A stretch of 62,982 nt of DNA, the filler included, from Collodictyon triciliatum (taxonomy: Eukaryota): assembly GCA_043381765.1 (NCBI GenBank). It is 3 parts of 3 records of this genome, joined end to end, with 100 filler letters (N's around TTAATTAATTAA, not from the genome) between each part and the next. Parts side by side here need not be neighbours in the genome. Positions count along the whole stretch, not along the records: positions 22,811 to 47,572 come from JBHJMP010001075.1; 2 more parts are not named here. One strand, given 5' to 3'. Position 1 is the stretch's first letter; the number at the start of each line of letters is the position of its first letter. Shown piece after piece: positions 3,875 through 47,672 of the stretch. The translations under genes were made by a program, and so were the position numbers. The notes below the pieces were generated by a model. That model was not told the origin of the DNA, did no database searches, and was given only the letters and a program-made list of their open reading frames with translations.

Positions 3875-4942
3875 CTACGCGACCTTGTAGACGGCGTTTG
3901 TCATGTCGTCCATGGCCTTGCGGTGGACAAGGAACTCTGTGACGTTGAAGAGGGTTGTTGCGGCGATCTCGCGGAGGGCGTCGCGGGTGAAGAAGGCCTG
4001 GTGGGCGGTGAGGATGATGTTTGGGGAGGTTGCGAGTGCGCGGAGGACGGGGTCGTCGATGCCGGGGTGCGAGTGGAAGAAGTACTTTGCCTCGTGCTCG
4101 TAGACATCGAGGCCGGCGCCGCGCAGGTGGGCGGAGGCGACGGCTTGGAGGACGGCCTGTGCGTCGACCAGGGCGCCGCGGGAGGTGTTGATGAGGATGG
4201 CGCCGGGCTTCATGCGTGCGAGGGCGCGGGCGTCGATGATGTGCCTGGTGGCGGGGACGAGGGGCATGTGGAGGGAGAGGATGTCGGCGTGCGCAAGGAC
4301 GTGGTCGAGCGGCGCGTACGTCACGCCGGGCGTCTGCGCCAGGGCCGCGTTGGGGTACGCGTCGTAGCACAGCAGGCGGCAGCCGAAGCCCAGGAAGATG
4401 CGCGCAGCCGCCTGCCCGATGGCCCCGGTCCCCAGCAGCCCCACCACGCGCCCCGCCATGTCGAAGCCCAGCAGCTCCCGCGTCAGCGCAAAGTGCCCCG
4501 CCGCGTTGTGCTGCATGGCCTGCGGCAGCCGCCGGTTCAGCGCAAGCGCAAGCAGCGCCGCATGCTCCGCAACCGCCCGCGGCGAGTACGCCGGCACCCG
4601 CGCAAGGCTCAGCCCCGCCGCCCGGCACGCCCCGACGTCCACCCGGTCGAACCCTGCGCACCGCAGCACAAGCAGCTCCGTGCCCCCCGCCCGCAGCGCC
4701 GCCACCGTCGCCGCGTCCGCCTCGTCGTTCACAAACAGGCACACGATCCGGTGCCCCTGCGCCAGCCCCGCCCGCTCCAGGTTCAGCTCCTCCCCCACGA
4801 ACCCCACCTCCACCCCGACCTTCCCGTACTCCGCCTCAAACTCCCGCACCGCCTCCTCGTCGTACTCCTGCGCGCTGTACACAAGCATCCGCACCCGCTC
4901 CTGCCCCGCTCCCGCTCCCGTCTCCTCGCCTCCGCTGCTCAT
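3875..4942 (-). CDS. ldhA: NAD-dependent D-lactate dehydrogenase (LdhA-like D-2-hydroxyacid dehydrogenase), intronless, ~355 aa
   Basis: Motifs LRCAGFDRVD, RVPAYSPRAVAEHA, Rossmann GTGAIG, INTSRGALVD, LDVYEHE, TAHQAFFT. Start taken at MSSGG (4942) because the upstream ORF extension looks non-coding. Confidence 0.93.
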   Translation of the reverse strand: MSSGGEETGAGAGQERVRMLVYSAQEYDEEAVREFEAEYGKVGVEVGFVGEELNLERAGLAQGHRIVCLFVNDEADAATVAALRAGGTELLVLRCAGFDRVDVGACRAAGLSLARVPAYSPRAVAEHAALLALALNRRLPQAMQHNAAGHFALTRELLGFDMAGRVVGLLGTGAIGQAAARIFLGFGCRLLCYDAYPNAALAQTPGVTYAPLDHVLAHADILSLHMPLVPATRHIIDARALARMKPGAILINTSRGALVDAQAVLQAVASAHLRGAGLDVYEHEAKYFFHSHPGIDDPVLRALATSPNIILTAHQAFFTRDALREIAATTLFNVTEFLVHRKAMDDMTNAVYKVA

Positions 4943-5544
4943 CCTGTCCCGCTCTGGCCCTGTGTGGCAAGACTCCCTGTTAGTATCCCCTCTTCTCCTC
5001 TTGCGTAGAGGCCTTCTTTCCTCCTGGCGTTTTGGTTCTCTGCCGTTGCCTCCAATTCGTTCTTGCTTTCTTGCTTGTCTCTTCTGTACTGCTTCATTCG
5101 GATTGCTTGTCTGGCGGGGGCTGTGTCGCCTGAATGTGAGCTTATATGCACCCGAGACTGATTCCATTGCCCTGGGCTGGCTTCCTGTGGTGACGCGCTG
5201 GTGACGCGGCGTGCTGCTGGCGTGACGGTGTCTTCACCTCTTTCGCTTGCCGCCTCTGTGGTCTTCCTTGGTGCCCTGGCACATGCGAAACACACGCCAA
5301 GCACGCAGAAAATGTGCCATTTTTGAGGAAGCAGAGTTTTTTTTTTTCTTCAATAGTGGAAAATATAACACAACTACTGGGCTGTAAAGTTTAATTTCGT
5401 TGTTCGTATCCCTTTGACAGTTACCCAAAGCAGATAGAACAAAGTTGAGTGATATGTGAACATCAAAGTCATTGGCGCATTTAAAAAACAGTATCACCAC
5501 AAACGGATACACCAGCGGTAGGTTTCGCAACACAAAAAGTATCA

Positions 5545-5616
5545 TGACCCCACGCAGATTTGAACTGCGATTGTCAGATTCAGAGTCTGAAGTGCTAACC
5601 GTTACACCATGGAGCC
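5545..5616 (-). tRNA. tRNA-Gln (anticodon CTG)
   Basis: Minus strand GGCTCCATGGTGTAACGGTTAGCAC-TTCAGA-CTCTGAA-TCTGA-CAATCGCAGTTCAAATCTGCGTGGGGTCA folds into a cloverleaf, with a T run downstream. Confidence 0.93.
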
Positions 5617-5757
5617 CGTTGTCAGTTTCGCACGATTTTTAATAAAGTATAAACTATAGTTCACATCCGTGCTTTTCTCTTTTTTTCCTTTTTCTCTTTA
5701 GCGGGTTTATCGTTGATGTTTATGCGAACCGAAGTTGCCTGCAGATCTTCCTCCTAT

Positions 5758-7750
5758 TCATTCATTCGGGCGGCCTTCCTTGATAAAGATGGTTGAAAGC
5801 GCACTAAGAACCACCGCGCAGTTGAGGACTACGACCAACATGCCCGCTCCGAATCGGTCGTAGTATGGGCCGTCTTCTCTGGCTTTCATTTGGAAAGTGC
5901 GGCGAACGTAGATGATATAGGCATAAATTGTGAAAAATACTCCAGTACCTAGCAAAATAAGCGACCCAACCATAACACCTCGACGGTCAGACAGCCTGCA
6001 TACCATCACCAGTTCATACAGAAAATAACAAACAGTACAATCAGTGTCCCATAATGTCATTCAAATTGGAATCAGATGGAGAGGGAAAGGTGGAAGTGAG
6101 GAGGAGAAGAAACAAAGAAAAAGTAAGAAAAAAAGATAGTATGTTTAATACGAGTATACGAAAATTAAAGAGCAAGTGTAATTGCAACATAGCTTTGATC
6201 GTCAAAGTAGAATGAAATAAAATAAAATATGGTTTTGCTTATCAAATCATATTCAATTCTCACCCAAGGAAGCTAAGTGCAAAAACACAAAGCGTAAGAG
6301 AAATCTTGACCCAAGAGAGATAAGTTCTTTCGTTGGCGAAGAAAGTTTTGGGCTCTACTCTCATAGGGTATTTGATTGCCAAATCTTTCGACATGGAACA
6401 ACAACTAGATTCGTACGGATTGTTTTCAGCAACGTGCCTACGATTGGCCAGCTGACTATTCTGAGGATATCCTGGCGGCGATGAATCTCCTTTAATCACC
6501 GGTTCAACCTTCTAATGCATAAATGTTCAGGTTGTATTAAAAATGATTTCGTGCACTTAATCATTATTATTATTATCATTATCATTAAGAAAAGGACTTT
6601 GCTTGACTTAAAATGTAAGAGAAGCCTAAGTCCCTTCCCTTAATGTTTCAGGAAATAAACTCACCGAATAATCTTTCGTCTTTGCTCCTGTTCCGCGAGC
6701 AGATTGTTTTTTGACATTTGTTGAATGAACTTTCTCTCCAACACTGCTGTCTCCAGTCACTGGAGCCTTAAAAGTACTCGAAGATGGTGGTTTCGGTTTC
6801 ATCCCATCGATCCTTTTTATCCACTCTGGATGTGATGGAACTTGTGTGGGCAATAAAGATGCGCATCCATATAAATATTTTGAAAACTGCTCAGCTTTAA
6901 TCAATATGGGGTCATCCAAAAGAGTTTGAATCCAGGACGGAATGCTCTGTCTATTTAATTTTAATTCGAAAATTTTGTTTAAAAAATAAAAGCAACATTA
7001 CAAACATGCTTTTCTTATAGAAAGAATGAGGGGGGGGGGGGGGGGGGGGGATAAAAAAAAAANNNNNNNNNNGGTGGGGTGGGGGGGATGTGGGGTGGTG
7101 TGAAGGGGTGGGTGGGGGGGGGGGTGGTGGTGGTTAAACAGCACAAATTCTAGTGAAAAGGAGAAAATCATTCATACTAAAGTATGTGAATATATCCATA
7201 GATTAAGGTATAAAAATTGAAATGAAATGAAAGACAAACCCAAGGTCATTTTGTGTTTTGATTTCAAGAACAGCGAAAGGCAACTGCGCCGAGTGGTCAA
7301 TGGACATTCCAGTTCTTGTGTCCCTTTTCCATTCACCCATTCTAAATCGCTCGAGTACATAACGAACATTCGCATCCAATGTAATCCGAATGTCACTAGA
7401 CCCTGGTTGTTTAAACTCTGTACGGTTGAAGGACACGCGTACAGCAGGAACAAGTTGCTTCATTTCAACCAACCTTTGAATTTCATGACCAAGCTTCAAC
7501 GTTTCTATAATCTCATCTTCACTCATACCTTGCTCTCGAAATTTAGGAGCTTCGTCGTTTAAACTGGCTGTTCCGGTTAAAAACGGAACCAACTTGTCTG
7601 TGTTCATTTCGATGGATTTTTTTTCATTATATGAACCAGTCGGTGGTGTGTGTAGTGTAATTTTCTCAACTGAAGCTTTCAAAGGTTCCTCATTTCCGTA
7701 CCATCTGATGCAAATCAAGGACGATTTCTAGTATTTGTAAGGGAGGGATA

Positions 7751-22710: not shown

Positions 22711-22810
22711 NNNNNNNNNNNNNNNNNNNNNNNNNNNNNNNNNNNNNNNNNNNNTTAATTAATTAANNNNNNNNNNNNNNNNNNNNNNNNNNNNNNNNNN
22801 NNNNNNNNNN
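22711..22810. other. Artificial contig-joining spacer
   Basis: 44 N + TTAATTAATTAA (stops in all six frames) + 44 N = exactly 100 bp. Confidence 0.95.
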
Positions 22811-25800
22811 TTTCCGCGCACGATTTGATCAGGGAAGTCCAAAAACTGATTTATTCCTTTGTTGTTCTGGTGGATGAAAATTCCAGATTTGTATAGAAGA
22901 GGATGGCTCCGGCCTTCGCTGCGTTTGTGCGTTCTCTCGCCCTGTGTCCCGTCTCCCTTTACTGCTATTCTCTCCCTCTCACGTCCTCTCTCTACCTCTC
23001 TCCCTCTCTCTTTTTTTTTCTCTTTCTATCTGTTTGTCCCATACATGGGTAAAATATGGTGTATTTTTTTTTCTAAATATAACACAGCCAAAAGAGTAAT
23101 AAATGCTGTGATTTTGTCCGAATCTTTATATTTTTTTTTATGAAAAAAAATTGATAAAATAAAATAAAAAGAGAACGGTGCTAGTTTTGCAACGATGATT
23201 AATTCATCTGCCGAGGTGAGTACTTGTCGTGTATCCTGTTCTTCTTCCTTCACTTCCTTTTCTTCCAATGCTTCGCCCAGCTGATGGAATTTTAAGATAA
23301 AGCACGGGATTGTATTTCTTTTGGTCAACTGTAATTGATTGACGGAAAAAAAAATACATAGCGTCCCCCTTTCTATGATTTTGTCTTTTTTTATTTCTTT
23401 TTTTAAGAAAAAGGAATAATTTTATGAGCTTTTTGTTATCTTCATTGTGCTGGATTTTTTTGATTTGAATATCTTGATTCCCTTAGCGGTTGTTGGTTTG
23501 ACATATGATGAGGAGCCTCTGGGCGATAATCGGATTGGCCCTTCATTAGGAGGATGTTCAGATATATTGCAATCGAAATCCTGTCGAACCAGGCCATCAA
23601 AGTCGCGAGGAGAGTCAGGATTTGTTGAGCTCAGAAGAGAGATTTGACTTTTTCTTCTGCCTTTTTGAGTGGGAGGGCTCGGTACTGTAAATGATAGCGC
23701 TGCATTAGTCGTGATGGATGCTACAGAAGACCTTCGCCTTTGATTGTATGATTTTGTCCTGCGAAAAGCCAACCCTGGAGACAAAGCTGTATTTGATGCA
23801 AACTGTGATGCTACCGCCTCAAGGGATATATTATCAGGAATAGACCAATCAATCTCCTCTAATGGCTCTGTCGTCTCGTTCTGTGGCGCGTCTGGGAATG
23901 ACAAGCTATTTGCCTCTGAATTTCTTAACGAGGTTTGAAGGCTACTGAGGGATTCTGCTAACTGTTTCATCTTCAAAGTTGTCGACTGAATCCGCTGGAC
24001 TGCTTCGTCTTGAAGTTCAAGAAGGTTTTGACATCGCGCAAGTTGAGGACTAGAGTCCATCGGATTTGCAGCTATTTCTTGATAAAAGGACCAGAGCTCC
24101 GATACCACAGTCTGCAAACGCTTACTGTCATGTTCCAAGGATTGCAACAGCGTTTTGTTCTTCGACAATGCTCCAGGATTCACCGGAGGCGGCAGCTTCT
24201 GCCGAATAGAGGGAATTAATGACTCGGGACGAAAAGGTATATTAAAATCCCTGGCCAATAATCTTAGTTGCAATAGTATTGAACTCATTTCGGTTGGTGG
24301 CATATCCTTGAGTAAAATAAAGTCTATGGAATGGGCACTTGATTTCGTATCAATCACTGAATTTTCGCTTTCAATCGCTTTCCTCATTTGAGCCAAGTTC
24401 ATTTCCTGGTCTTTGGAATGTTTTTGTAAATCTTGAAGTAATTCTTTAACTTGAGACAGCTCTCTTTGTAGATGCTCTTTTTCCTGGCCTAGAATCAGTC
24501 GAAGTTGTCTTTCATAATTGAGTTCTTTTTTCAGTTGCGTAATAGTGTTTTTATCAGCAATGCTCCCAGGGTTTGCTGTGACTGGTGATTCTTTAGAGCT
24601 AAGTTCTGATTGAATGCTTTGTGCTGTAGTCGATTTTCCACCTGCTTCACTCTGCTTATGTGAATCAAAGAATTCTGATATCTTGGTCAAACTTGTTACA
24701 CTGGACTTTCGCTTTGTTGAGTTCGGTATTCCGGGTGGCCCATTTAGTAGTTGAGGACTCGATAGAAAACTAGAATTGGACGATATTGAACGCATTCTGA
24801 TCGATGAAATCGTATTTGAAATTGAGTCTGTTGCTTCAGATATACTTGGGAGGCCAGAGTTATAGATAGATGAAGGAGGGTTCTCGGAGCTCGTTTGATT
24901 CTCCATCAGTGTCTCAATTTCCTTTTCTGTCTGTTCCAGTCTTATTTCCAAAAGATCAGCTCGTTCGCTCTCCATCTGTAACGTTTGCTCGAGGTTGTAG
25001 TTTAGTGCTTCCAGCTGCTTTTGTTTCTCTAAAAGCTCCTCGATGTGTTTATCTTTTAGTTTGAGAGAAATAATTTTGCTGCTGAGAACCATCTCTTCAA
25101 TTGGATAATTAGCTTCTTCCCTTGCTATAAAAGATTCGTCCGTCTACAGAATATTTTCGATATTCATATCGTGCAAGGCCATCAAATAAAATTTATATCA
25201 CTTTTTTTCTTAGGACAAGGACAAGGGTAAGATTAAAATGAATATAATATATCATAGTTTTACGATTTATCTACTGTTTAAAGTACATTTGATACGAAAT
25301 GTCTCTCTTTTTTTTTTTAATAATAATTTTTTTTTAGATAGAGTCAGAGATGAAAAAAAATAAGGAATCAGTCGAATCCAACCTTTCTTATCTCCTCATA
25401 TTGTTCTGCCGACCTCCAAAGGCGTGCGACAACAACACGAAGAACCAGGTCGCTTTGAGGCTTTTGAGAATCCTCTTCCAGTAAGGTAACAGCAACAGCA
25501 AGATGAACATCTAGGAAGGAGAATTTATTTATTAATATTGGTTTCTTTTTTTTTAAAAAAAAAGGAGAAAATTTCGACAAATATTTTTTTCAAAGCTATT
25601 TGCGATAGTTTGGTTTTCTCCATTATTCAACTTACATACAATAATGTAGGATATTAAAAGCAGTATTAAGCATGATTATGTAAGTCTGCATCCTTGAAAT
25701 ATTTTTTTTACATATAAGTCAATTTATGCGATATGGAAGGTAGAGTAAAATAGTGACATAATATTACTAACCAAACTCATCAAGGCTCTTATGGAGGACA

Positions 25801-27064
25801 ATTCCATCTGTGCTGTGAAGAACATGGTCATGAACGGCATCAACATCTGCCTCTGGTGAAAATCGAAACATAAGGAGTTCGTAGTTTTCAAAAAGTGAGG
25901 GAGAGGGTAATTTCTTCTTGTCTGGCTTTTCGTGGGCCCGTAAAGCTATAGAGAATGGTTCATGAAATGAGACCTGCAAGAAGATTTTCGAGTAATTAGA
26001 ATTTTTTTTTTAAAAAAAAAAAAGCTATTAAATGCTTATGTCCTGAAGAAAAATCTTTGAGGAGATTTGAGACTTTGAAAATGTACAATCAAAATATTCC
26101 GATATATATAAATTTTAAAAGAGCTATCGAGGAAAACATATATTTAATAAGAGCTTTTTTTTTTTGGTTTGTTTTTTTACGTTCGATCCTTTCTTGATTC
26201 TTTTCCATAAAAGCTCCACAGCAAGTTGAGCCTCCAAGGTTTCATATGACAGAACCGGATAAAGTCGAGCCCTCTCATGTCTCTGAAGCAGCTCTGGTGT
26301 TCTCCATGCTATTGTGATAATAACGAGTACTTCATCCGCAAATCCACTCGGATCTTTATGAGTGTATCAATAAGTATAGGGTGGGAGGAATTCAAACGGT
26401 ATATATACAGAGAGGACGACCATTACACGATGGAAAAAAAAGTGGGAATATGCTGCCGTAGTTTCAATAACTATAATCCAAGGAATGATTATTTTTCATT
26501 TAATGAACATTTTCTCCATAAAGTAAGCGGCGCAAGGAGAGATAGAGTTAACATTGGGAGCACATAAAATAATCATGGTTCTAGCATATTGAAAATCAGA
26601 GAATAGAGAGAAAATCTTGAGAAGAACGGTACGAAAGAAAAGGAAAAGGGAACGAAGGATAGAAAAAAAATCAATATGAACTCACCGGTCCTAGGTGCCA
26701 TCTGAGAGGCTACCGCGAAGTGAAAGTCTACCGCGTGTGGTGGTGGTGCAGAGAGCAACTTGTGTGTCTCTTGGATAAGACGTTCAGCTGCATCCCGCAG
26801 GATCTGCTCATAGAGGGCCGCCTTATATAACACAGGAAAAACGCGCGCCGAGGCAACATTTGGAGGTAGACTTAACTGTTTGACAAGGCTGTGTGTGAAC
26901 GTGGACGCGGGATATATCTGCCGTCGCTCGAGGTGCTGCTGAATCCCTTCTTGGACGTGCCTCTGAAGCTCCGAGCAAAGGCGAACAAAATATCCGTGCT
27001 GATGGCATAGACGCAAGTATTGTTGTCCGATGGCCGAGGGCAGTTGTGCAAACTGCAGAGACAT
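22811..27064 (-). CDS. Large unknown coiled-coil / Ser-rich protein, multi-exon, 3' end lost at the spacer
   Basis: ATG at 27064 (MSLQFAQL), several GT-AG exons and a ~1.7-kb exon (23422-25145) with heptad-rich segments. Confidence 0.75.
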
Positions 27065-27532
27065 GGTCTGATCTATAGAACCTTCGGCAGAGTGTGTTAT
27101 ATGAAAGCATATATGTGTGTGGATGGATGGTGCCTTAGCTTTGAAGAGCCCCTCTTGGATGAGTGATCTTTGAGTCAGGAGTGGAAACTGTCCTTTGGTA
27201 TGGAAACTATGCACCAATTGGCCGAGCAAACAGAAAATGATGAAATAGGAAAAGGGTGTTGACAGATTTCTTCGTTGTGGGATTATCCGATCCATTCTCT
27301 GACGCGCGGGATGTCTCGGGCTTGGGGTTTGCACTCGCGATGCAGTCTAATGGACGCTCCCTCCGTGATATCAAAGGATTCAGTGAATGATTATGAGTAT
27401 AATCGCAGCTTTTCCATCGCCAAGACCGGCGAGTGCCTCTTCTAATATATTCTCTTTTGATTCATTCATTCACATATACACACACTAAACACTTTGGATT
27501 TCTGCCAAGCACGCTGACAGTTTTTATCTACT

Positions 27533-27660
27533 AACTAGAAGGAGTAAACCAATCTTTCGATTGGTAAACCTGGTGCGCTAGTATCCAAGGTCTCACCACT
27601 TTTTTCACAATGGTCGTGCAGTGTTGAAGGCTGCCCGGAAAGACCCGACAGCCAGTTTTT
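27533..27660 (-). ncRNA. Putative Fanzor omegaRNA scaffold
   Basis: Three stem-loops overlapping and following the ORF 3' end: GCTGTCGGG-TCTT-TCCGGGCAGC, TGGTG...CACCA, ACCAATC-GAAA-GATTGGT. The position matches known TnpB/Fanzor omegaRNAs. Confidence 0.5.
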
Positions 27661-29540
27661 TAGAGGAAGGTGTATGCATGTTTTGAAAGATAAAAAGAAC
27701 TTTCTGGAGTACATTTTTAGCGCTGTTAAAGTCCCTTGTCAAGAATACACTTTGTCTGCTTTCTGAGCGATTGCATTCTTTACATATGAGATAACTATAC
27801 ACTTTTTTTGAATTTCCTTTCGGTTTCACATATTCTGGTTCTTTTTTACAGTTGTAACACATCTTGGAGGTTCTAAATTCATCTACGCTAACAGTTTCAA
27901 AACGTTCGGAAGCATTTTTCGTAACCCTTTTCGGATTGTTGGCATAAAATGTTTCATCGGATATTTTCTGCTCCAGTCTCCATACGCCAGTACAACATCC
28001 TTGCCAAATGTCTTTTCGATTCAGTTCATAAACAACTGTTCACTTCTTTTTGCATTAACATACTGCCTCAACTCATCTTTCGAAAAGTTACGTGTTTATA
28101 AAATCTGGATAGTTCTATCTGGTTTCTTGATTTCATAGAAACATATTTTCGAAATTTATCATAATCGACCGTGCATGAATTATGTTTAATCAGTTTTGTC
28201 TCTAAATCGATTAAGGATACTCTTGATGTCTCAAACTGCTGATTCTCTTCAAAAGTCATGTGACCAAAAGAAACAGCACTTTGTAAATCTGTTTCCATGT
28301 ATATCGCTGAATGATTGTACTTTTCTTTTTTCTTGCACAAGAGTACTTTTTGATTTTTAGGAGATTTGGTATCATGTTTTCTTTGGTGTGCCGTGTAGCG
28401 TAATTTCTTGCCTGTCTCATCCACCATGTAAACAAAATTAAACTTGCCTGCATTCAGTCCAACTATTTTTTTGTCGCTAATAATGATAACTGCTCTTCGG
28501 AAAGTTCATCCATATAAACATAATCATAGGTTTTTTTGATTAAATCGGATTTGAATTTGAAATACCTTCCTTTTCAAACAACGATGACACCGCCAAGCCG
28601 TCTGTTTGTATCATGTATTTAAAATTGTAGTATCTTTGATGAAAGACCCTCTTCTTCATTTCAAAGAAATTATCCCATAGTGTCTCTTTGCATCCTGATA
28701 TATTCTTCAGTAAAATGGTTTTTTCAGATAAAACTCATATATTTATCAAACATGCAGTATCTAGAGTAATTTGCATGTCATATTGTAGTTCTTATAGAGA
28801 TTGGTTGAAACAGTTTGGCTCCAATGTCCTAAAAAATGCGACTCATGTAAATCAGACATGGAATGCACTTATTTGGATTGGCTTTGACGACATATTCGAT
28901 ACCATTTACAATGTCGCTAGGAACGATACGATGCAAATGGATTATAGCCCATTATTTATATTGTTCCAGTATTTCGAGTTTCTTGAAGATAGATTTTTTT
29001 TAACTTTCATAACTTTGCCTTTTTCAATAGCTTCCGTAATATTCTCATTTTTAGGAACTGTTTGATTTATAAAGCGCAGTAACATCTTTACAAAATGTTC
29101 CTTAATATTACTATGATATGCTGTTAACATTTGCTTCACCAAGTACAGTAATATATGAGACAGTGTAAACAACTGAAAGCGTTCTTCTCGGGAACAAAAG
29201 TAATCGAAAATCATTGAGATAAAAAGTCATCATGTCTTCTCTCATATCTGGTAGTTTTTTTTAATCTTGCGTGTCTATCTTGTGGGACTATTCCGACTGT
29301 CATTAAAGCGTACAGAAAAACCATTTCATGGATTGTTGGTGGTTCTTGTGCTTTCAATATGTAACATGTTGCAAAAAAATAAGTGTCGGTAACCAAATTA
29401 TGACACAATAAAACCGTATCGTTGATTTCGTCATAGTCATCTGCATTTTTTTACAATTGACTTTAGAGATATTTCACATTTCGATAGTCTGGGTTTACAG
29501 ACTTTAGATTCTCAGACTCAAGGCGTTTTCTTTTCTTCAT
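27605..29540 (-). pseudogene. Fanzor1 (TnpB-like RuvC RNA-guided endonuclease) pseudogene with several stops and frameshifts
   Basis: Reconstructed motifs in order: FKYMIQTDGLAVS; RuvC-I KIVGLNAGKFNFVYM (canonical D-P-G decayed to N-A-G); KKLRYT; FGKDVVLAYGDWS..MKHFMPT; RuvC-II VDEFRTSK + CxxC; CxxC; RuvC-III TRDFNSAKN. No introns evident. Confidence 0.9.
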
Positions 29541-30396
29541 CTGAAAGTCTTTGTTCTACTTTTTTGTTTAGAGCACTACCAAGTTTTCAATTTCAATAAA
29601 ACTTTAGTCAATTGTTAATTTCACGAAAAAAAACTACACAAAATCAATTGTGTAAAATTAAGTATCTACTGAGACTCTCAAAATGTGCGCGTTGTGGCAA
29701 ACAAACACACACAGTTTTTTACAAGTGATTTGAGACAAACCTTTGAGAGCCGATTTGGCGAGTTCGAAATGACGGCCATATAGCCACGGCGACTAAAAGT
29801 CAACATATTGGCCCCAAACGACATGACTACCGCCGCAAGTGAGGATATTATGCTTTTTTGAAATGCATGCTTGGTGGCAGGTATATAGAGTGGGTTCTGT
29901 CTGAGCCAAAGCAAGGACTTGTTTGTATTTTTTGAATTTTAATGCAAAACATTACATCATATAAACGAAAAAATAAAGTATGAATTGATTACAGGAATAG
30001 AATGATTATTAAGTATTGATTAACCTTATTATATACACTAATCATACTATTATATAATTCAGATTGTTTCTTGGATTCATCAAAGCTCCTGCTTTTGTCA
30101 ATCCATATTTAATTCGATGGTTATATGTGCAATAAATTGCTATGTTGATGAGTACACTTTCGTTGTATAAAAAGTGGGGTGCTTTGAAAGGGATAAAATC
30201 AAGTTCGTCACAACCTTTGTCATGAAGTTAATCCATTTACAGGCTGAATGAGACCGAAGATAAAAGAAAAAAAAGAAAGGACAAGTGAACCAGAGCAACT
30301 AATACTGAGCATTACATTCGTATTAATCTCGCCGCCCGTGGGTTGATGGCTAATCAAGAGATATTTTTTTATTCCCTTTTATTACCATTACCATTA

Positions 30397-30794
30397 NNNN
30401 NNNNNNNNNNNNNNNNNNNNNNNNNNNNNNNNNNNNNNNNNNNNNNNNNNNNNNNNNNNNNNNNNNNNNNNNNNNNNNNNNNNNNNNNNNNNNNNNNNNN
30501 NNNNNNNNNNNNNNNNNNNNNNNNNNNNNNNNNNNNNNNNNNNNNNNNNNNNNNNNNNNNNNNNNNNNNNNNNNNNNNNNNNNNNNNNNNNNNNNNNNNN
30601 NNNNNNNNNNNNNNNNNNNNNNNNNNNNNNNNNNNNNNNNNNNNNNNNNNNNNNNNNNNNNNNNNNNNNNNNNNNNNNNNNNNNNNNNNNNNNNNNNNNN
30701 NNNNNNNNNNNNNNNNNNNNNNNNNNNNNNNNNNNNNNNNNNNNNNNNNNNNNNNNNNNNNNNNNNNNNNNNNNNNNNNNNNNNNNNNNNNNNN
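30397..30794. other. Assembly gap
   Basis: 398 Ns. Confidence 0.99.
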
Positions 30795-30802
30795 TATGCA
30801 TA

Positions 30803-33800
30803 GCCTATCGACCGCGAAATCTACTCCCATAAAATGCTAAAGAAAGAAAAGAAAGTTCGTGGATATGTGTGTGCTACAAGAGATGGCGCTATCCGAATCA
30901 TGTATTTTTAACCTTTTTTTTTTTTAAAAAAAGTAACACTTATGTGAGCTGAAATACTACCATTTTTCTTTATATATGTTGTTCTATTTGTATTGAGATT
31001 ATTTATTTTTTTTAAAAAAAAAGGGTTGGCCGCGAGGTCTATGTCCAGGTGCACCACCCTTCCTTGGCATGGGCAAAAAGCCAAGAGCTCTTAGAGAAAT
31101 ATCCAATAGGAACACTAATTAGCGCTGAAATTAATAAGTTTGTTCTTAACAAAATATTTGTTTATATATCCAGCGTATGATATTCTGTCTCAAAACGGGA
31201 ACCGAAAATTGAATGCAGCTGTATTGACTTTTAAGATTTTTTTTTAATACTCAACCTCATGATGCTGCTAACGTCTATTAAAATTCATTTGCTTTTTTTT
31301 TTTTTTTTTAAAAAAAAAAACACTACTAGAGTATCTGTCCGCAGGAATGTATGTATAGGGACTATGATTACAACCGATCAACCTGAGAAGGAAGTGTGGG
31401 AGAACCATAAGGCATTCAAAGTTGGTGATCTGGTGAGAGATTTAAAAGCCCCTCTAAGATCTTTAAAGAAAACCGCACACAATCTTTTCTTCTCTTTTTC
31501 TTCGCTATTTAACATCGCAAATGATGCCAATTCCTTGCAGGTTAATGCACAAATCAAAAAAATTCTTCCTTGTGGTATGATTCTCAAATTGAAAAACACT
31601 CCGATTTCAGGGCTGAGTCATATTTCTCAGGTATGAGTTGTTTTGCACGATTTGATGCCATATCTATGGTTATTTACCGTGGTATACTAACCCTTTTTGA
31701 TTTTATGCTTTATGTTACCCGCAGATTGAAAAACCTTTAACAGAATTTTCGGAAGGAGAGAAAGTAGAAGCTATCATCATAAAAATCAACACAGAGAAGA
31801 GTAAAATGTCATTCAGCATGAAGGTTCGTATGGTCAGAGTTTGAGGCAAAATCAAAATAGTGTACTAATCAACATGTTTCTCGTAGAGTTCAATCATTTC
31901 CGCTGCCAAAAAGGGTAGCAGTCAGATCATTGACGACGACGAAGAGGATAATGACATGGTTGATGATCAGACTTTGCAAGATGATGAAGACGAGGACGAA
32001 ACTGTACTTTGGGATACGGCCGACTATGGTATGCGCTCAGTAGAAGCGGGTCATCGATCAAAAGGTTCAGAGATCGAGGATGAATATGAAGATGCAGGTG
32101 AAAATGAAAGTGAAGACGAGAATGACGATGAAGATGTTGATGAATGGAGTAGTGACGATAATGGAGAAGATGATGAAAGCGAGAATAATGAAGACAGCGA
32201 TAAAGAAAGTAAGAAAACTTTGAAAGCCTCTCGCCCACCAATCTTTCCACCGATTGCGAGCCTATATTTTTTTCTTTTTCCAAAATCTATTCTATAGGCG
32301 CATACGCACCGGGCAGCTTTGGCTGGGATGACCTAAAATTCAGCAGTCTACCGACTAAAAAGTCGACCAAAGAAAGCAAGGTTGAAAATAACGACGAAAG
32401 TGATGGAGATGACGAGAGCGAAAATGACATGGATGGTAGGACTGTTCTTATGGCTGCACTCTATAAGAACTTACAAAGTTTTATTCTATTCAAACGCGCA
32501 CTAGAGAACCACTTTCCCTTCTTTGTATATAGAAAAAAAACCTCTATATTTATTACACGTTTTAACACATTGAAGAAGCCGAGAAGCAGAGCAAATCGAA
32601 AAGGCAAAAAACCAAGGAAAAAAGACAAGAGGAAGAGAAAATTAAGAAGGTAAGAAATTCCATTACATATTGTGCAAGAGGTTTGAGTGGGTATGTTTCT
32701 TTTTTAAAAGAAACGTGCCTAGTTGCTGTTCTTTTAGTTTTCTCTCTTTTCTATTTGAAAATCAACATGATGACGAGGACCGAAACTTATAGATGGAAGA
32801 CACACTCTTGGACGAGGACAGAGCTCCCCAATCGATAACAGACTTTGAAAGATTGCTTCTGGGAAATCCTAACAGCTCATTTATTTGGGTTCAATACATG
32901 GCATTCCAGGTATGCTGTCCATCTTTCTCCTTCTTTTCTATTTTCGCCCTCACCAACAGTGCTTTAGGCATATAGTTCAAAATCCATCAAACTGACGCAT
33001 TTCCTTCCGAATTACTCATTACATGTTTATCGTTATACATGAGTTTAATTTACATACTAACATTTTTTATTTTTTATTTGCTAATTATAATATTTTTCTA
33101 TTTGTAGATATCCTTGACCGAAATAGAAAAAGCTAGAGAGATTGCAGAGCGAGCTTTAAAGGTTTTTATTTGATTAAAAATAGAAAACATAATAGAAACA
33201 AAAACAAAACAAAAAACTAAGGATTAATTGAATTTTCGCTATGTTGTGGCTATGACTTTAAATCTCAACCATGCAACAAGATAATGTAAGTGCCCCTACG
33301 AATGACTAATTTAATTATTATTTTTTTTTAAAAAAAAATAATAATACCTGTTTGGTATCAACAGACCATCAATTTTAAGGACGAAAATGAAAAGCTGAAT
33401 GTTTGGACTGCGTATCTCAATCTAGAGAATACGTACGGAACAGAGGAAAGCTTAATGAAACTATTCCAACGAGCATTGACTCACAACGACGCCAAGAAGG
33501 TTTCAATTTATAGACACCCAATTACTCCCAACTCAACTATGATAATTTGTTGTTGAGAACCAATTTTGACTGATTGAATACAATCAAATGAATCTCATTC
33601 TAAAGGTTTATCTGCGCATGGTGGACATCCTTGAAAGCTCAAAGAAGAACAAGTTGGCCGAACAAGTCTTCAAGGCATTAATATCAAAGTACAAGCACAG
33701 CAAAAAGGTGATGAGTTCACCGTTATCGTGAGGCTGTTGTGGAATGAAGAGCAATATGATGTGCTGAAGAGACACAAACTGAAAGTGTTGGCGAATCCTT

Positions 33801-34805
33801 TCCTTCCTCTTTTTTTCTTTAACTCCGGAATTCCTGGATTGTTATCAATATATTTATTTGTAATGTTCAGGTATGGGCTCGATATGGGCAGTTTAAACTG
33901 GCTAACAAGCTTATTGATGAGTTCAGGAAAGTCCAGGAGCGTGCAATTCAAATGTTGCCTCGTAGAAAACGTAACAACACGCCATTGTGCAAATCTGATA
34001 CACTTAGTCCATTCATTTTTATAAACACCAACAAATTAATATATAATGGGGATGCGATGAGACATGATAGCCATTTTAAAACGGAATACATGTACATATG
34101 ACCGCATAACAGATATCCAAACAATTGTCAAGTTTGCCATGATGGAGTTCAAAAACGGCTCTAGTGACCGTGGTCGCATCATCTTCGACAGCATATTGGG
34201 GTTCGCACAGACATACGCATATCTATTAGAGTTTCAACCACCTAAAATACATTCGGTTCATTTGATACGATTCTCCTTTGCTGTGTAAACCTCACAAATA
34301 GTCATTCAATTTTGTTTTGAAATGTTATATTATCCAGTAACTTCCCGAAAAGAATCGACCTTTGGTCAGTCTACCTCGACATGGAAATCAAGACGGGCAA
34401 AGCAGACATTGTCCGGTGCGCACATGAACACATTTTTTTTCTTCTTTTTAGTATACCATATCTTCACCAGAAACTACGCATACTTTTTTTTTCATTTTGA
34501 TGCGCTCATTTTCGCCCTTTGCATATGCGCGGTGTGTGCGGCTATACCTTTGTCATAATGATTACGCAGCGGTGGAATTATATTATATTTTGTCTACGCT
34601 ATTTTTTCTAATATCTTCTTTCTTTCTTTCTTTCTCTCTCAGCACACTTTTTGAGCGCGTTACAAGCCTGAACCTCTCATCCAAGAAGATGAAGTTCTTT
34701 TTCAAACGATATCTGGAATGGGAGAAGGAGACGGGCAACGAAGAGCGCATCAACCACGTGAAGGAGAAAGCGCGCCTTTACGTCGAGTCCAAGATGACCA
34801 AATAA
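30803..34805 (+). CDS. RRP5: rRNA biogenesis protein RRP5/PDCD11, 3' part (last S1 domains, acidic linker, HAT repeats)
   Basis: KVRGYV S1 motif, [87 protein letters not shown]. Confidence 0.93.
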
Positions 34806-36941: not shown

Positions 36942-37561
36942 TGGAAGGCTGTTTCGTCTCGGCTGTGGAAGAAGGTCAGCGCATCAGGTTGGGGTTTGAG
37001 GCTGAAATGATTGATACCTTTATTTCTCTTCTTTTCTTTTCTTTTTTTTTTTTTTGCTTTTTTCTTGTTACGAAAGCAGAGCTCTTTGGATGCAACTCAG
37101 AGATTTGAAACTCGGATCCTGGTCGCCATTCACCAAGACCGACTTGTCAACCGCTCGCTGTGCGTTGGGCCCTTCTTCCAACAATTGACGCGCTGCCAAA
37201 CGCATCTCCACAAACGCCTGTCGCTGCCGCTGTCTCTCGCTACAAATTGTGACGCCATTATGCAACGCATCGCCCAAAGCAGGCGCATTATATACTTGCC
37301 TGAATTCAGTGGAGCACAACCCAAAGTGTGCATGGAAGATTCAACGAAAGTTCGGTACAGACCGCCTAAACGAGAGAAAATATATTACAGAATATTTTCT
37401 ATTTGTGTGTGATTTTCTCTAATTATTCTAATAAACATTACATATGTGGGCTATGAGAATTCCAAGTTTGGAAATAACACAGAATTTCTGGCTTTGCAGG
37501 CGCCTAGCCAAGTCGTTGACAAATATTAGAGTGTTCGAAGCCTAGAAGGAAGGGTTTTTTT

Positions 37562-38227
37562 TTGTTTTTTTGCATCGTTCTGCAGGCTCATTCAGGGCTG
37601 TCAAACAATCTGAACTCTCCGCAATTCTCGATGGCAGTGTTATATTCCAAGCTGTTTCGATATAAAATCATCAGTCCGAATCCCTACAAACCGGAGAAAT
37701 TGAGTCGATGGGCCGAAACTATAGGCATTATAGACCCACCAATAGTCAAAAGCTGGAAGCAGGCCCGCATATCTCAGTTAATCCCGAAACACCGCGCCCT
37801 ACTTCTCAATATCCCCAACAGAGAGCTGTGGATAGGTGCGCGTGTAGTCCATGCAGCAACGACCTCTCCAGAATGCATCATGTGCCATAGTGGAGATGAT
37901 TCTATCGAACACACATTTGTGAAGTGCTCTATTGCTCAAAAAGTGACAGAATCTACCCACAAGATGCTCTTTGAGCTTGATTATGCTCCCAACCGACTCA
38001 GCGCGTCTGACATCCTGTTTGGTCCGCAATACCAAATGACCCACGACTCTAGAATACTCAGGGCAGTCACAAGGGGACATATGCTGTGGTCCTTATGGAG
38101 TGTGCGTGCATTCTCTCGCTCCAATGATTCACCCGAACGAGAAATCAATGTATCCAGGCTTGAGAGCCTCGTGCAATACAGCGTATTAAAAGGATTAAGC
38201 AACGGCAATATATCCAGAAATCTATAG
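37562..38227 (+). mobile_element. Non-LTR retrotransposon (L1/Tx1-like) ORF2 3' fragment with zf-RVT
   Basis: CIMCHSGDDSIEHTFVKC zinc-binding motif followed by LWSLWSVR, typical of the L1-clade C-terminus. Intronless. Confidence 0.75.
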
Positions 38228-47572: not shown

Positions 47573-47672
47573 NNNNNNNNNNNNNNNNNNNNNNNNNNNN
47601 NNNNNNNNNNNNNNNNTTAATTAATTAANNNNNNNNNNNNNNNNNNNNNNNNNNNNNNNNNNNNNNNNNNNN
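47573..47672. other. Artificial contig-joining spacer
   Basis: 44 N + TTAATTAATTAA + 44 N = 100 bp. Confidence 0.95.

What the first reader, a model, noticed from the sequence alone, without database searches (positions are those of the whole stretch)
27605..29540. Fanzor1 (eukaryotic TnpB-like RNA-guided nuclease) locus hidden among short broken ORFs
Seen: joining the minus-strand fragments across stops and frameshifts gives an intronless ~600-codon protein. Its motifs, in order, are FKYMIQTDGLAVS, a decayed RuvC-I (IVGLNAGK, Asn at 28452-28454 where the catalytic Asp is expected), FGKDVVLAYGDWS, RuvC-II VDEFRTSK (Glu 27878-27880) just before a CxxC...CxxC zinc finger, and RuvC-III RDFNSAKN (Asp 27731-27733). 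Established: the Glu placed directly before the zinc finger is the rearranged RuvC of Fanzors, and the YGDWS/TDG motifs occur in Fanzor1 proteins of fungi, algae and giant viruses. Inference: this copy is dead, but it implies a Fanzor family in this protist whose intact or consensus copies could be an uncharacterised programmable nuclease.
Basis: partly seen in the sequence, partly recalled or inferred. Interest (0 to 1): 0.9.

Follow-up and report, generated by a model that had tools for sequence, protein, structure and literature searches.

The report
Dead Fanzor1 nuclease gene copy
This stretch is a broken, non-functional copy of a Fanzor1 gene, a known kind of RNA-guided DNA-cutting enzyme carried by transposons of eukaryotes and giant viruses, so the identification is right but the thing itself is ordinary.

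Summary
The minus strand 27605-29540 aligns collinearly with residues 1-633 of an intact 648-aa metagenomic protein, P0001 (summed E 7.7e-147, 59% identity). The alignment crosses 10 frameshifts and 4 in-frame stops (TAA, TAG, 2x TGA). The catalytic DPG motif reads NAG.

A profile of 43 intact relatives, built without the window, matches the solved Fanzor1 proteins of Parasitella (E 5e-96), Spizellomyces (E 3e-89, full length) and Guillardia (E 1e-69). The same profile hits seven collinear pieces of the locus (E 3e-5 to 3e-28) and nothing else in the window. The locus is therefore a Fanzor1 pseudogene.

Relatives are abundant on giant-virus contigs (331 in IMG/VR). 87 of 93 fetched loci have uninterrupted ORFs. 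They lie in inverted-repeat-bounded transposons with a conserved 3' non-coding element.

None of those ends, no partner transposase and no second copy is detectable in the window. No whole genome was available.

Short contigs from freshwater metagenomes, 85-92% identical, carry Asp instead of Asn and the frame-restoring state at 4 frameshifts and 2 stops. Less decayed copies therefore exist somewhere.

Fanzor1 is already characterised and catalogued in thousands, and degenerate copies are common. This is a new member of a known kind, of modest interest.

The parts
27605..29540 (-). Fanzor1 pseudogene, about 630 codons when read through. ATG at 29538-29540, stop TGA at 27605-27607. It has 10 frameshifts and 4 in-frame stops.
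28585..28623 (-). FKYMIQTDGLAVS motif. The Asp at 28600-28602 is an invariant family column (D313 of P0001).
28443..28466 (-). Decayed RuvC-I motif IVGLNAGK. Asn at 28452-28454 stands for the invariant catalytic Asp, and Ala for the invariant Pro.
27970..28008 (-). FGKDVVLAYGDWS. The invariant Gly (27979-27981) sits at the position of the lost canonical RuvC-II Glu.
   Evidence: PMC10530073 passages
27863..27886 (-). VDEFRTSK. The relocated RuvC-II Glu is at 27878-27880 and is retained.
27773..27859 (-). CxxC...CxxC zinc finger (CYNC 27848-27859, CKEC 27773-27784), retained. It gives a sub-threshold PF07282 match.
27713..27736 (-). RuvC-III motif RDFNSAKN. Asp at 27731-27733 is retained.
27400..27604 (-). 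3' non-coding flank, where relatives carry their conserved guide-RNA scaffold and right end. No such element is detectable here and the role is unknown.
   Evidence: all negative
29541..30396 (-). 5' flank up to the N gap. Metagenome contigs that match the gene also cover this stretch (several are identical between 29253 and 30176), so it probably belongs to the same repeated element. No ORF, inverted repeat or transposase remnant was found.

Best explanation
Window 27605-29540 (minus strand) is a dead, intronless copy of a Fanzor1 gene. Fanzor1 proteins are the eukaryotic and giant-virus branch of the TnpB-type RNA-guided RuvC DNA endonucleases, and they ride in DNA transposons.

In living relatives the 600-700-aa protein binds an RNA transcribed from the 3' end of its own element. 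The RNA scaffold ends at the transposon's right end, and the flanking bases that follow serve as the guide. The protein then cuts matching double-stranded DNA next to a short target-adjacent motif. Cutting uses Asp (DPG), a relocated Glu directly before the zinc finger, and Asp (RDxxxxxN).

This copy cannot do that. It has 10 frameshifts and 4 stops of all three kinds, and its DPG reads NAG. It still keeps 11 of 14 invariant and 30 of 34 nearly invariant family residues, so it appears to have decayed from a functional-type gene.

It is most likely a fossil of a transposon insertion. The lineage also circulates in giant viruses of freshwater microbes.

Shown here: the homology, the family assignment, the decay, and the architecture of the relatives. 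Inferred by homology: the RNA-guided cutting mechanism. Inferred: the route of arrival.
For: (1) The locus aligns collinearly with the intact 648-aa P0001. The summed tblastn E is 7.7e-147. Identity is 59% over residues 1-633.

(2) A profile of 43 intact relatives, without the window, hits seven collinear pieces of the locus at E 2.7e-5 to 3.2e-28. It hits nothing else among 2,539 six-frame pieces.

(3) The same profile matches solved Fanzor1 proteins: 9cf0 Parasitella at E 5.3e-96, 8gkh Spizellomyces at E 2.5e-89 over profile positions 5-614 of 622, and 9cer Guillardia at E 9.9e-70. The next hit is at E 0.03.

(4) Invariant family columns include DP of DPG, the Glu before the zinc finger, RD of RuvC-III, the Asp of TDG and the Gly of YGDWS. 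39 of 43 relatives fit the Fanzor1-like pattern of preprint 10.1101/2023.08.09.552727. The window's read-through fits everything after DPG.

(5) 19 of 43 relatives hit PF07282 at E 1e-3 or better. The window's own C-terminal piece scores 22.2 bits, E 1.6e-4.

(6) Decay is clear: 10 frameshifts of mixed direction and stops TAA, TAG, TGA, TGA, plus D364N, P365A and E391D.

(7) Metagenome contigs identical to the window cover the shifts at 29471, 29451 and 29261, so these are not peculiar to this assembly. Diverged contigs (85-92% alike) carry the frame-restoring indel at 29471, 29451, 29194 and 28070. They read sense codons at the stops 28952-54 and 28021-23, and Asp and Val where the window has Asn and Leu.

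(8) Relatives: 87 of 93 loci have uninterrupted ORFs and the other 6 run off their contigs. 331 relatives lie on viral contigs, many of them giant-virus bins. A conserved 3' non-coding element ends in an invariant ...GGTGTA. Its closing helix is 94% paired, against 36-62% when slid, and 3 pairs show compensatory change. Inverted copies of that end lie upstream in 30 of 69 loci. L001, L003 and L005 have a divergent neighbour ORF of one family. Only the L001 ORF was scanned, and it carries DDE_3 and an HTH domain.
Against: The window's own pieces do not reach significance against solved structures. The best is the mimivirus TnpB-like L79 at E 0.098. The Pfam match is below the curated cut-off. 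The Fanzor1 assignment of the window therefore runs through its relatives.

P0001 itself gets no Pfam or NCBIfam hit.

The right-end/guide-RNA element and inverted repeats of the relatives are not detectable at the locus. The 3' flank does not fold better than shuffles (z -1.57). No transposase remnant or inverted repeat flanks it. The transposon context of this copy is thus unproven.

The RNA-guided activity of this particular lineage has not been tested by anyone, as far as my two literature searches show.
Confidence: 0.93

Rival explanations
1. The gene is really intact. On this reading the breaks are assembly or sequencing errors, programmed frameshifts, or stops that the organism reads as sense codons.
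For: Several shifts lie at A or T runs, for example 29451, 29261 and 29001. The scaffold has N gaps.
Against: Four in-frame stops of all three kinds, ten shifts of mixed direction (4 of one base, 6 of two) and substitutions at invariant residues cannot be explained by one code or one slippage rule. Contigs from other public runs identical to the window carry the same shifts at 29471, 29451 and 29261. All 87 complete relatives are plain uninterrupted ORFs under the standard stop codons.
Confidence: 0.03
2. The copy is part of an endogenous giant-virus insertion rather than a transposon fossil in ordinary host DNA.
For: The nearest labelled relatives are on giant-virus contigs. Fanzor1 elements move between integrated giant viruses and host chromosomes in Chlamydomonas (10.1101/2024.09.03.611062, passages).
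Against: Six-frame pieces of 22900-34000 share nothing with the 93 related loci except the Fanzor ORF itself. Neighbouring ORFs look like cellular genes: a coiled-coil-like 573-aa ORF, HAT-repeat pieces, SPX/VTC and a 2-hydroxyacid dehydrogenase. No viral hallmark genes were searched for specifically, and only loci holding a Fanzor were compared.
Confidence: 0.08
3. The protein gene is dead, but the locus still supplies a guide RNA or transposon ends that an intact copy elsewhere uses, like the 'ghost' elements of Spizellomyces.
For: Ghost loci lacking the ORF are described in Saito et al. 2023 (PMC10432273, passages). The 5' part of the locus has identical copies in four metagenome runs.
Against: No conserved 3' element, inverted repeat or stable fold was found at the locus. 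No Rfam family matches.
Confidence: 0.05

Closest known systems
Spizellomyces punctatus Fanzor1 (SpuFz1, PDB 8GKH; Saito et al. 2023, PMC10432273)
   Same: The full-length profile match (E 2.5e-89) covers the N-terminal REC/WED half as well as the RuvC half. It shares TDG, GDWS, the Glu directly before the CxxC finger and the RD motif. It is a single-ORF element of about 2 kb with a 3' guide RNA. Its genome also holds partial copies (42 loci, 19 of them full length; passages).
   Different: SpuFz1 is intact and biochemically active. The window copy is broken and has NAG for DPN/DPG. SpuFz1's ends and RNA are defined, whereas none could be found here.
Parasitella parasitica Fanzor1 (PDB 9CF0) and Guillardia theta Fanzor1 (PDB 9CER)
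   Same: These are the best and third-best profile matches (E 5.3e-96 and 9.9e-70), with the same motif order.
   Different: Both carry long insertions relative to this family: the match splits into 2 and 3 stretches. Both are intact proteins.
Fanzor1 plus IS630/Tc1/mariner elements of the integrated giant virus of Chlamydomonas reinhardtii (preprint 10.1101/2024.09.03.611062)
   Same: Fanzor1 genes there sit on giant-virus DNA, with full-length, Fanzor-only and degraded arrangements, and there is a degraded fragment in a host chromosome (passages). Here too, one of the nearest viral relatives (L001) has a DDE_3 transposase beside the Fanzor gene, and the window holds a degraded copy in cellular-looking DNA.
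   Different: No sequence comparison with those elements was possible. The source organism here is unknown, and no viral genes flank the copy.
Fanzor2 and prokaryotic TnpB (IS607/IS200-605)
   Same: They share the RuvC fold with D-E-D, a zinc finger before RuvC-III and the guide-RNA logic. The window's C-terminal piece weakly matches the mimivirus TnpB-like protein L79 (E 0.098) and PF07282.
   Different: The family profile does not reach any Fanzor2 or TnpB structure at E 1 or better; the next hit after the Fanzor1 proteins, LaTranC, is at E 0.03. The proteins here are 600-700 aa with the large N-terminal half typical of Fanzor1.

Membership tests
Fanzor1 | Full-length sequence homology to experimentally characterised Fanzor1 proteins | tested here: met
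   The window matches P0001 at E 7.7e-147. The family profile matches 9cf0, 8gkh and 9cer at E 5.3e-96, 2.5e-89 and 9.9e-70. The profile hits window pieces at E down to 3.2e-28. The window's pieces alone against PDB are not significant.
Fanzor1 | RuvC-I DPG motif with catalytic Asp | tested here: not met
   The window reads NAG (Asn 28452-28454, Ala next). Asp and Pro are invariant in 43 of 43 relatives. This marks a dead member, not a different family.
Fanzor1 | Canonical RuvC-II Glu lost, with an alternative Glu downstream directly before the zinc finger | tested here: met
   The Gly of AYGDWS (27979-27981) and the Glu at 27878-27880 are both invariant family columns, 34 residues apart. The criterion comes from PMC10530073 (passages).
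Fanzor1 | CxxC...CxxC zinc finger followed by RuvC-III RDxxxxxN | tested here: met
   CYNC, CKEC and RDFNSAKN are present. The window's read-through fits the part after DPG of the pattern in preprint 10.1101/2023.08.09.552727, and 39 of 43 relatives fit the whole pattern.
Fanzor1 | Enlarged N-terminal REC/WED half, with a protein of about 600-700 aa | tested here: met
   The profile aligns to SpuFz1 from position 5 to 614 of 622. The window covers residues 1-633 of P0001. This is by sequence only.
Fanzor1 | Bilobed fold superposable on solved Fanzor1 | not tested
Fanzor1 | Guide RNA (omega/fRNA) encoded at the 3' end, ending at the transposon right end | tested here: inconclusive
   Relatives have a conserved 3' element ending in invariant GGTGTA, with a covarying closing helix. 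In the window, no hit with profiles of that element, no Rfam match, and a fold z of -1.57. The window's lineage may use a different sequence.
Fanzor1 | Residence in a DNA transposon (terminal repeats, often a partner transposase) | tested here: inconclusive
   Relatives have inverted copies of the right end upstream in 30 of 69 loci and a DDE_3 transposase beside the Fanzor gene in L001, the one neighbour of that family scanned. None of these was found in the window. A 398-base N gap starts 857 bases upstream of the ATG.
Fanzor1 | RNA-guided double-stranded DNA cleavage | not testable with these tools
   This needs biochemistry. The window copy cannot encode a protein.
Fanzor2 / TnpB | Closest profile matches among Fanzor2/TnpB proteins, a compact protein of about 400-500 aa, and an IS607/IS605 TnpA neighbour | tested here: not met
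   No Fanzor2 or TnpB structure is reached at E 1 or better. The proteins are 600-700 aa. None of the six neighbour ORFs scanned with Pfam showed a recombinase or TnpA; one was a DDE_3 transposase, one a C2H2 zinc-finger protein and four had no Pfam match.

The most novel reading that the evidence does not exclude
The window and P0001 form a distinct Fanzor1 lineage that is still alive in the source organism or in a giant virus that infects it. Contigs 85-92% identical in four freshwater and aquaculture metagenomes restore the catalytic Asp, two stops and four frameshifts. The 5' part of the locus has identical copies in those runs. On this reading the pseudogene is a footprint of ongoing virus-host traffic of an RNA-guided nuclease transposon, and the intact copies would be an untested programmable nuclease with its own guide RNA and target-adjacent motif.
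Probability: 0.4. Interest if true: 0.35.

Novelty: new member of a known kind. Interest (0 to 1): 0.25.

Why it matters
It shows that a heavily broken Fanzor1 gene can be recognised from raw sequence.

It adds one more case of a Fanzor1 fossil in cellular DNA whose relatives are mostly on giant-virus contigs. That fits the picture of giant viruses as carriers of selfish RNA-guided nucleases.

Practically, the dead copy is of no use. The intact relatives could be screened as genome-editing enzymes: P0001 and the viral loci, which have a sharply defined right end. Many Fanzor1 proteins are already known, so the gain is incremental.

Tried and rejected
Whole-genome paralogue search: no genome is held for this window.

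Paralogues within the window: none (self-blastn; tblastn; profile).

Closer relatives:
- The metagenome scan with the 28068-28505 piece gave 18 loci at only 32-56% identity.
- The near-length protein search gave nothing.
- Exact 29-nt and 20-nt words of the locus are absent from the viral contigs.
- The closest hit to the C-terminal piece, P0105 (74% over 70 aa), is itself frame-broken.

Guide RNA and right end in the window:
- By eye, 27485-27506 (minus strand) resembles the relatives' terminal motif.
- Profiles of that motif and of the whole 3' element give no hit there; the best hits, elsewhere, are at E 0.48-3.7.
- The left-end profile gives E 74 at best within 27300-31500.
- I therefore drop the resemblance.
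- RNAalifold on the mixed 60-sequence alignment gave no structure. Only a homogeneous subgroup did.

Partner genes:
- The relatives' transposase and small upstream ORF have no remnant near the locus.
- The weak hits at 34327-34467 lie among HAT-repeat-like pieces and were taken as chance.

Sequencing runs:
- No RNA holder was listed.
- All eight listed runs hold only 5-8% of the sampled words, and four of them were laid.
- The stretch 23400-27400 had no cover apart from one bin at 25400-25649 in X2.

PF26935.1 is the precomputed label on nearly all relatives. The local Pfam copy did not report it, and I could not see its name.

Supplementary tables of the Fanzor papers were closed. They may already list relatives of this lineage.
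Full report
WHAT IS THERE

The minus strand of 27605-29540 contains no ORF longer than 145 codons. It is a chain of short stop-to-stop pieces in all three frames. The piece 28068-28505 found one long relative in the 5.8-billion-protein collection: P0001, 648 aa, 58% identical over 94% of the piece, E 1.1e-38.

P0001 is uninterrupted and carries IVGVDPGK, AYGDWS, VNEFRTSKLCCNC and RDFNSANN. A tblastn of P0001 against the window gives a collinear chain of matches from 29540 down to 27644, with a summed E of 7.7e-147. Every other match in the window has E 0.30 or worse.

I wrote a frameshift-aware alignment.
- It starts at the ATG at 29540 and covers P0001 residues 1-633.
- 368 of 624 aligned positions are identical.
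- It needs 10 frameshifts and passes 4 in-frame stops.
- The shifts are of mixed direction: four skip one base and six skip two.
- The stops are TAA, TAG and two TGA.
- No extra sequence sits at the shift points, so these are not introns.

WHAT FAMILY IT BELONGS TO

A search with the whole of P0001 returned 104 proteins at E 1e-3 or better, nearly all 560-730 aa (only the 8,000 candidates sharing most words were scored). I aligned 43 of them, chosen to span the identity range (A1).

The invariant columns are the Asp and Pro of DPG, the Glu of NEFRTSK, the Arg-Asp of RuvC-III, the Asp of TDG, the Gly of YGDWS and a few others.

A profile of A1 searched against all PDB chains gave these hits:
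- Parasitella parasitica Fanzor 1, E 5.3e-96.
- Spizellomyces punctatus Fanzor 1, E 2.5e-89, in one stretch covering profile positions 5-614 of 622.
- Guillardia theta Fanzor1, E 9.9e-70.
- The next hit, LaTranC, has E 0.03.

The same profile does not contain the window. It hits seven minus-strand pieces between 27608 and 29450 at E 2.7e-5 to 3.2e-28, in collinear profile order. It hits nothing else better than E 0.95 outside the locus, among 2,539 six-frame pieces of the window.

Other membership evidence:
- 39 of the 43 relatives fit the Fanzor1-like pattern published in preprint 10.1101/2023.08.09.552727 (passages read). The window's read-through fits everything after DPG.
- 19 of 43 relatives hit Pfam PF07282 at E 1e-3 or better.
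- The window's own C-terminal piece scores 22.2 bits, below the 26.3 cut-off.
- On their own, the window's pieces are not significant against PDB. The best is the mimivirus TnpB-like L79 at E 0.098. The assignment is therefore transitive, but each link is very strong.

THE REARRANGED ACTIVE SITE

Jiang et al. 2023 (PMC10530073, passages) report that Fanzors replace the canonical RuvC-II Glu by Pro or Gly and use a conserved Glu about 45 residues downstream. In this family the invariant Gly of AYGDWS stands at the canonical site. The invariant Glu lies 34 residues later, directly before the CxxC finger.

The window keeps this Glu (27878-27880), the zinc finger and the RuvC-III Asp (27731-27733). 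It has Asn-Ala for Asp-Pro in RuvC-I.

Saito et al. 2023 (PMC10432273, passages) give the metal ligands of SpuFz1 as E541, D383, N385 and D606. The lost Asp of the window lines up with D383 in the alignment.

HOW DEAD IT IS

The read-through keeps 11 of 14 invariant and 30 of 34 nearly invariant family residues. The copy therefore descends from a functional-type gene and has decayed moderately.

The breaks are not artefacts of this assembly. In four public freshwater and aquaculture metagenome runs (4 of the 8 listed were laid), contigs identical to the window span the shifts at 29471, 29451 and 29261.

Contigs that are only 85-92% alike differ from the window in an informative way (rows shown; 274 substitution rows and 18 indel rows were not shown).
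- They carry one base more after 29470.
- They carry one base less at 29452 and one base less at 29193.
- They carry one base more after 28065.
- These four changes fit the frame-restoring state at the window's shifts at 29471, 29451, 29194 and 28070.
- On the minus strand they read GAA for the TAA stop at 28952-54, where P0001 has Glu.
- They read CGA for the TGA stop at 28021-23.
- They read GAC (Asp) for AAT (Asn) at 28452-54, and Val for the preceding Leu, as in P0001.

Less decayed relatives of this very lineage therefore exist. Which organism or virus holds them is unknown. These runs hold only 5-8% of the sampled words.

RELATIVES AND HOW THE FAMILY WORKS

A scan of viral contigs found 331 stretches encoding relatives. 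75 loci were kept, many from giant-virus bins, with the best at 44-47% identity. Of the 93 loci fetched in all, 87 have an uninterrupted ORF and the other 6 run off their contigs.

Right after the stop codon the relatives share non-coding sequence.
- 76-82 loci are matched by a non-identical partner over the first 80 bases (counted per 20-base bin).
- This falls to 18 by 121-140 bases and to 5 or fewer beyond 180.
- The shared stretch ends in an invariant motif: the consensus ends GCGTTTTAAATGTTCAAAGGTGTAAAA.
- Beyond that motif the loci diverge completely.
- 76 of 87 loci match a strict pattern for it. The end lies a median of 81 bases (range 42-173) past the stop in the 60 distinct 3' ends.

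In a homogeneous subgroup of 23 sequences this terminal motif pairs with a 5' TTTTACAC... segment.
- 94% of cells are paired, against 36-62% with the partner slid.
- 3 of 13 pairs show compensatory change.
- The covariation score is reached by 0 of 500 shuffles.
- One caveat applies: the structure was derived from these same sequences.

An inverted copy of the terminal motif lies 390-650 bases, or about 1.4 kb, upstream of the gene in 30 of 69 loci. In L001, L003 and L005 the ORF upstream of the gene is divergent and of one family. Only the L001 ORF was scanned, and it carries DDE_3 plus an HTH domain, Tc1/mariner/IS630-like. Most others have a small upstream ORF with no Pfam match.

This is the known Fanzor1 layout: an inverted-repeat-bounded transposon whose right end doubles as the 3' end of the guide-RNA scaffold. 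[quoted passage not shown]

Full-length, Fanzor-only and degraded arrangements on an integrated giant virus, plus a degraded fragment in a host chromosome, have been described in Chlamydomonas (10.1101/2024.09.03.611062, passages).

WHAT COULD NOT BE FOUND IN THE WINDOW

- There is no second copy.
- The relatives' right-end and left-end motifs are absent.
- There is no inverted repeat between the two flanks.
- There is no remnant of a partner transposase or of the small ORF.
- No Rfam family matches.
- The 3' flank has no unusually stable fold.
- The flanks share nothing with the giant-virus loci.
- The neighbours look like cellular genes.
- A 398-base N gap begins 857 bases upstream of the ATG.

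In a FastTree of 176 rows the window's read-through (X at each break) is sister to P0001 with support 100. The next nearest rows are viral (L005, L003) and unlabelled. The tree is unrooted and has many long branches, so it gives no direction of transfer.

VERDICT

This is a dead Fanzor1 gene.

Fanzor1 proteins were defined a decade ago (Bao and Jurka 2013, recalled, not seen) and shown to be RNA-guided nucleases in 2023. They have been catalogued at 3,655 sequences, with up to 122 copies per genome (PMC10530073), and partial copies are known to be common (PMC10432273). The finding is a new member of a known kind.

The only forward-looking element is that related, less decayed copies circulate in freshwater samples. 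The intact relatives have cleanly delimited ends, which would make them easy to test.

Noticed in passing
window 2816, 15515, 16765, 25547, 26004, 30918, 31006, 31302, 33322, 60154: Palindromic T8A7-or-longer runs occur at 10 sites (18 strand matches, against 0 expected in 100 shuffles), mostly in gene-poor stretches. They could be a genome-wide intergenic signal, such as a two-way terminator or polyadenylation site, or a nucleosome-free spacer.
   Followed up: partly
window 3875-5233 (-), inside the 59% G+C island 4001-6000: An uninterrupted 452-codon ORF for a D-isomer 2-hydroxyacid dehydrogenase (PF02826, E 4e-49) sits in a G+C-rich island within an otherwise 35-44% G+C window. It may be a horizontally acquired or unusually composed gene.
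   Followed up: no
window 37520-38227 (+): This ORF piece carries a reverse-transcriptase-associated zinc-binding domain (zf-RVT, E 1e-7). A retroelement remnant lies about 8 kb from the Fanzor copy.
   Followed up: no
L001-L093: 3' flank of the Fanzor ORF and 0.4-1.4 kb upstream: The giant-virus Fanzor1 relatives share terminal inverted repeats of about 30 bp and a 3' non-coding element whose last bases (...CAAAGGTGTA) are invariant, across proteins only about 30% identical. Most also have a small same-strand upstream ORF of 90-126 aa with no Pfam match: a cluster of 50 neighbour ORFs, out of 74 upstream and 79 downstream neighbours clustered together.
   Followed up: partly
window 29253-30176: All seven 151-base metagenome contigs that are identical to the window fall in this 0.9-kb stretch, which spans the first 95 codons plus 640 bases upstream. 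The rest of the gene is matched only at 85-92%. The 5' part may belong to a younger or higher-copy derivative.
   Followed up: no
protein P0105 (136 aa, from a 582-base record): This is the closest relative of the window's C-terminal piece (74% over 70 aa). It is itself frame-broken just after RDFNSAN and continues in the frame that is also open in the window at 27535-27738. It is another decayed copy of the same lineage elsewhere.
   Followed up: partly
window 22711-22810 and 47573-47672: Two identical-looking pairs of 44-base N runs, each pair separated by 12 bases, lie about 24.9 kb apart. They may mark masked or unresolved copies of one repeat.
   Followed up: no
window 23422-25143 (-): A 573-codon open frame with no Pfam match. 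Language-model features resemble coiled-coil proteins of the CDR2/SOGA kind (score 0.93, low recognition). It is probably a cellular gene and not part of the element.
   Followed up: partly
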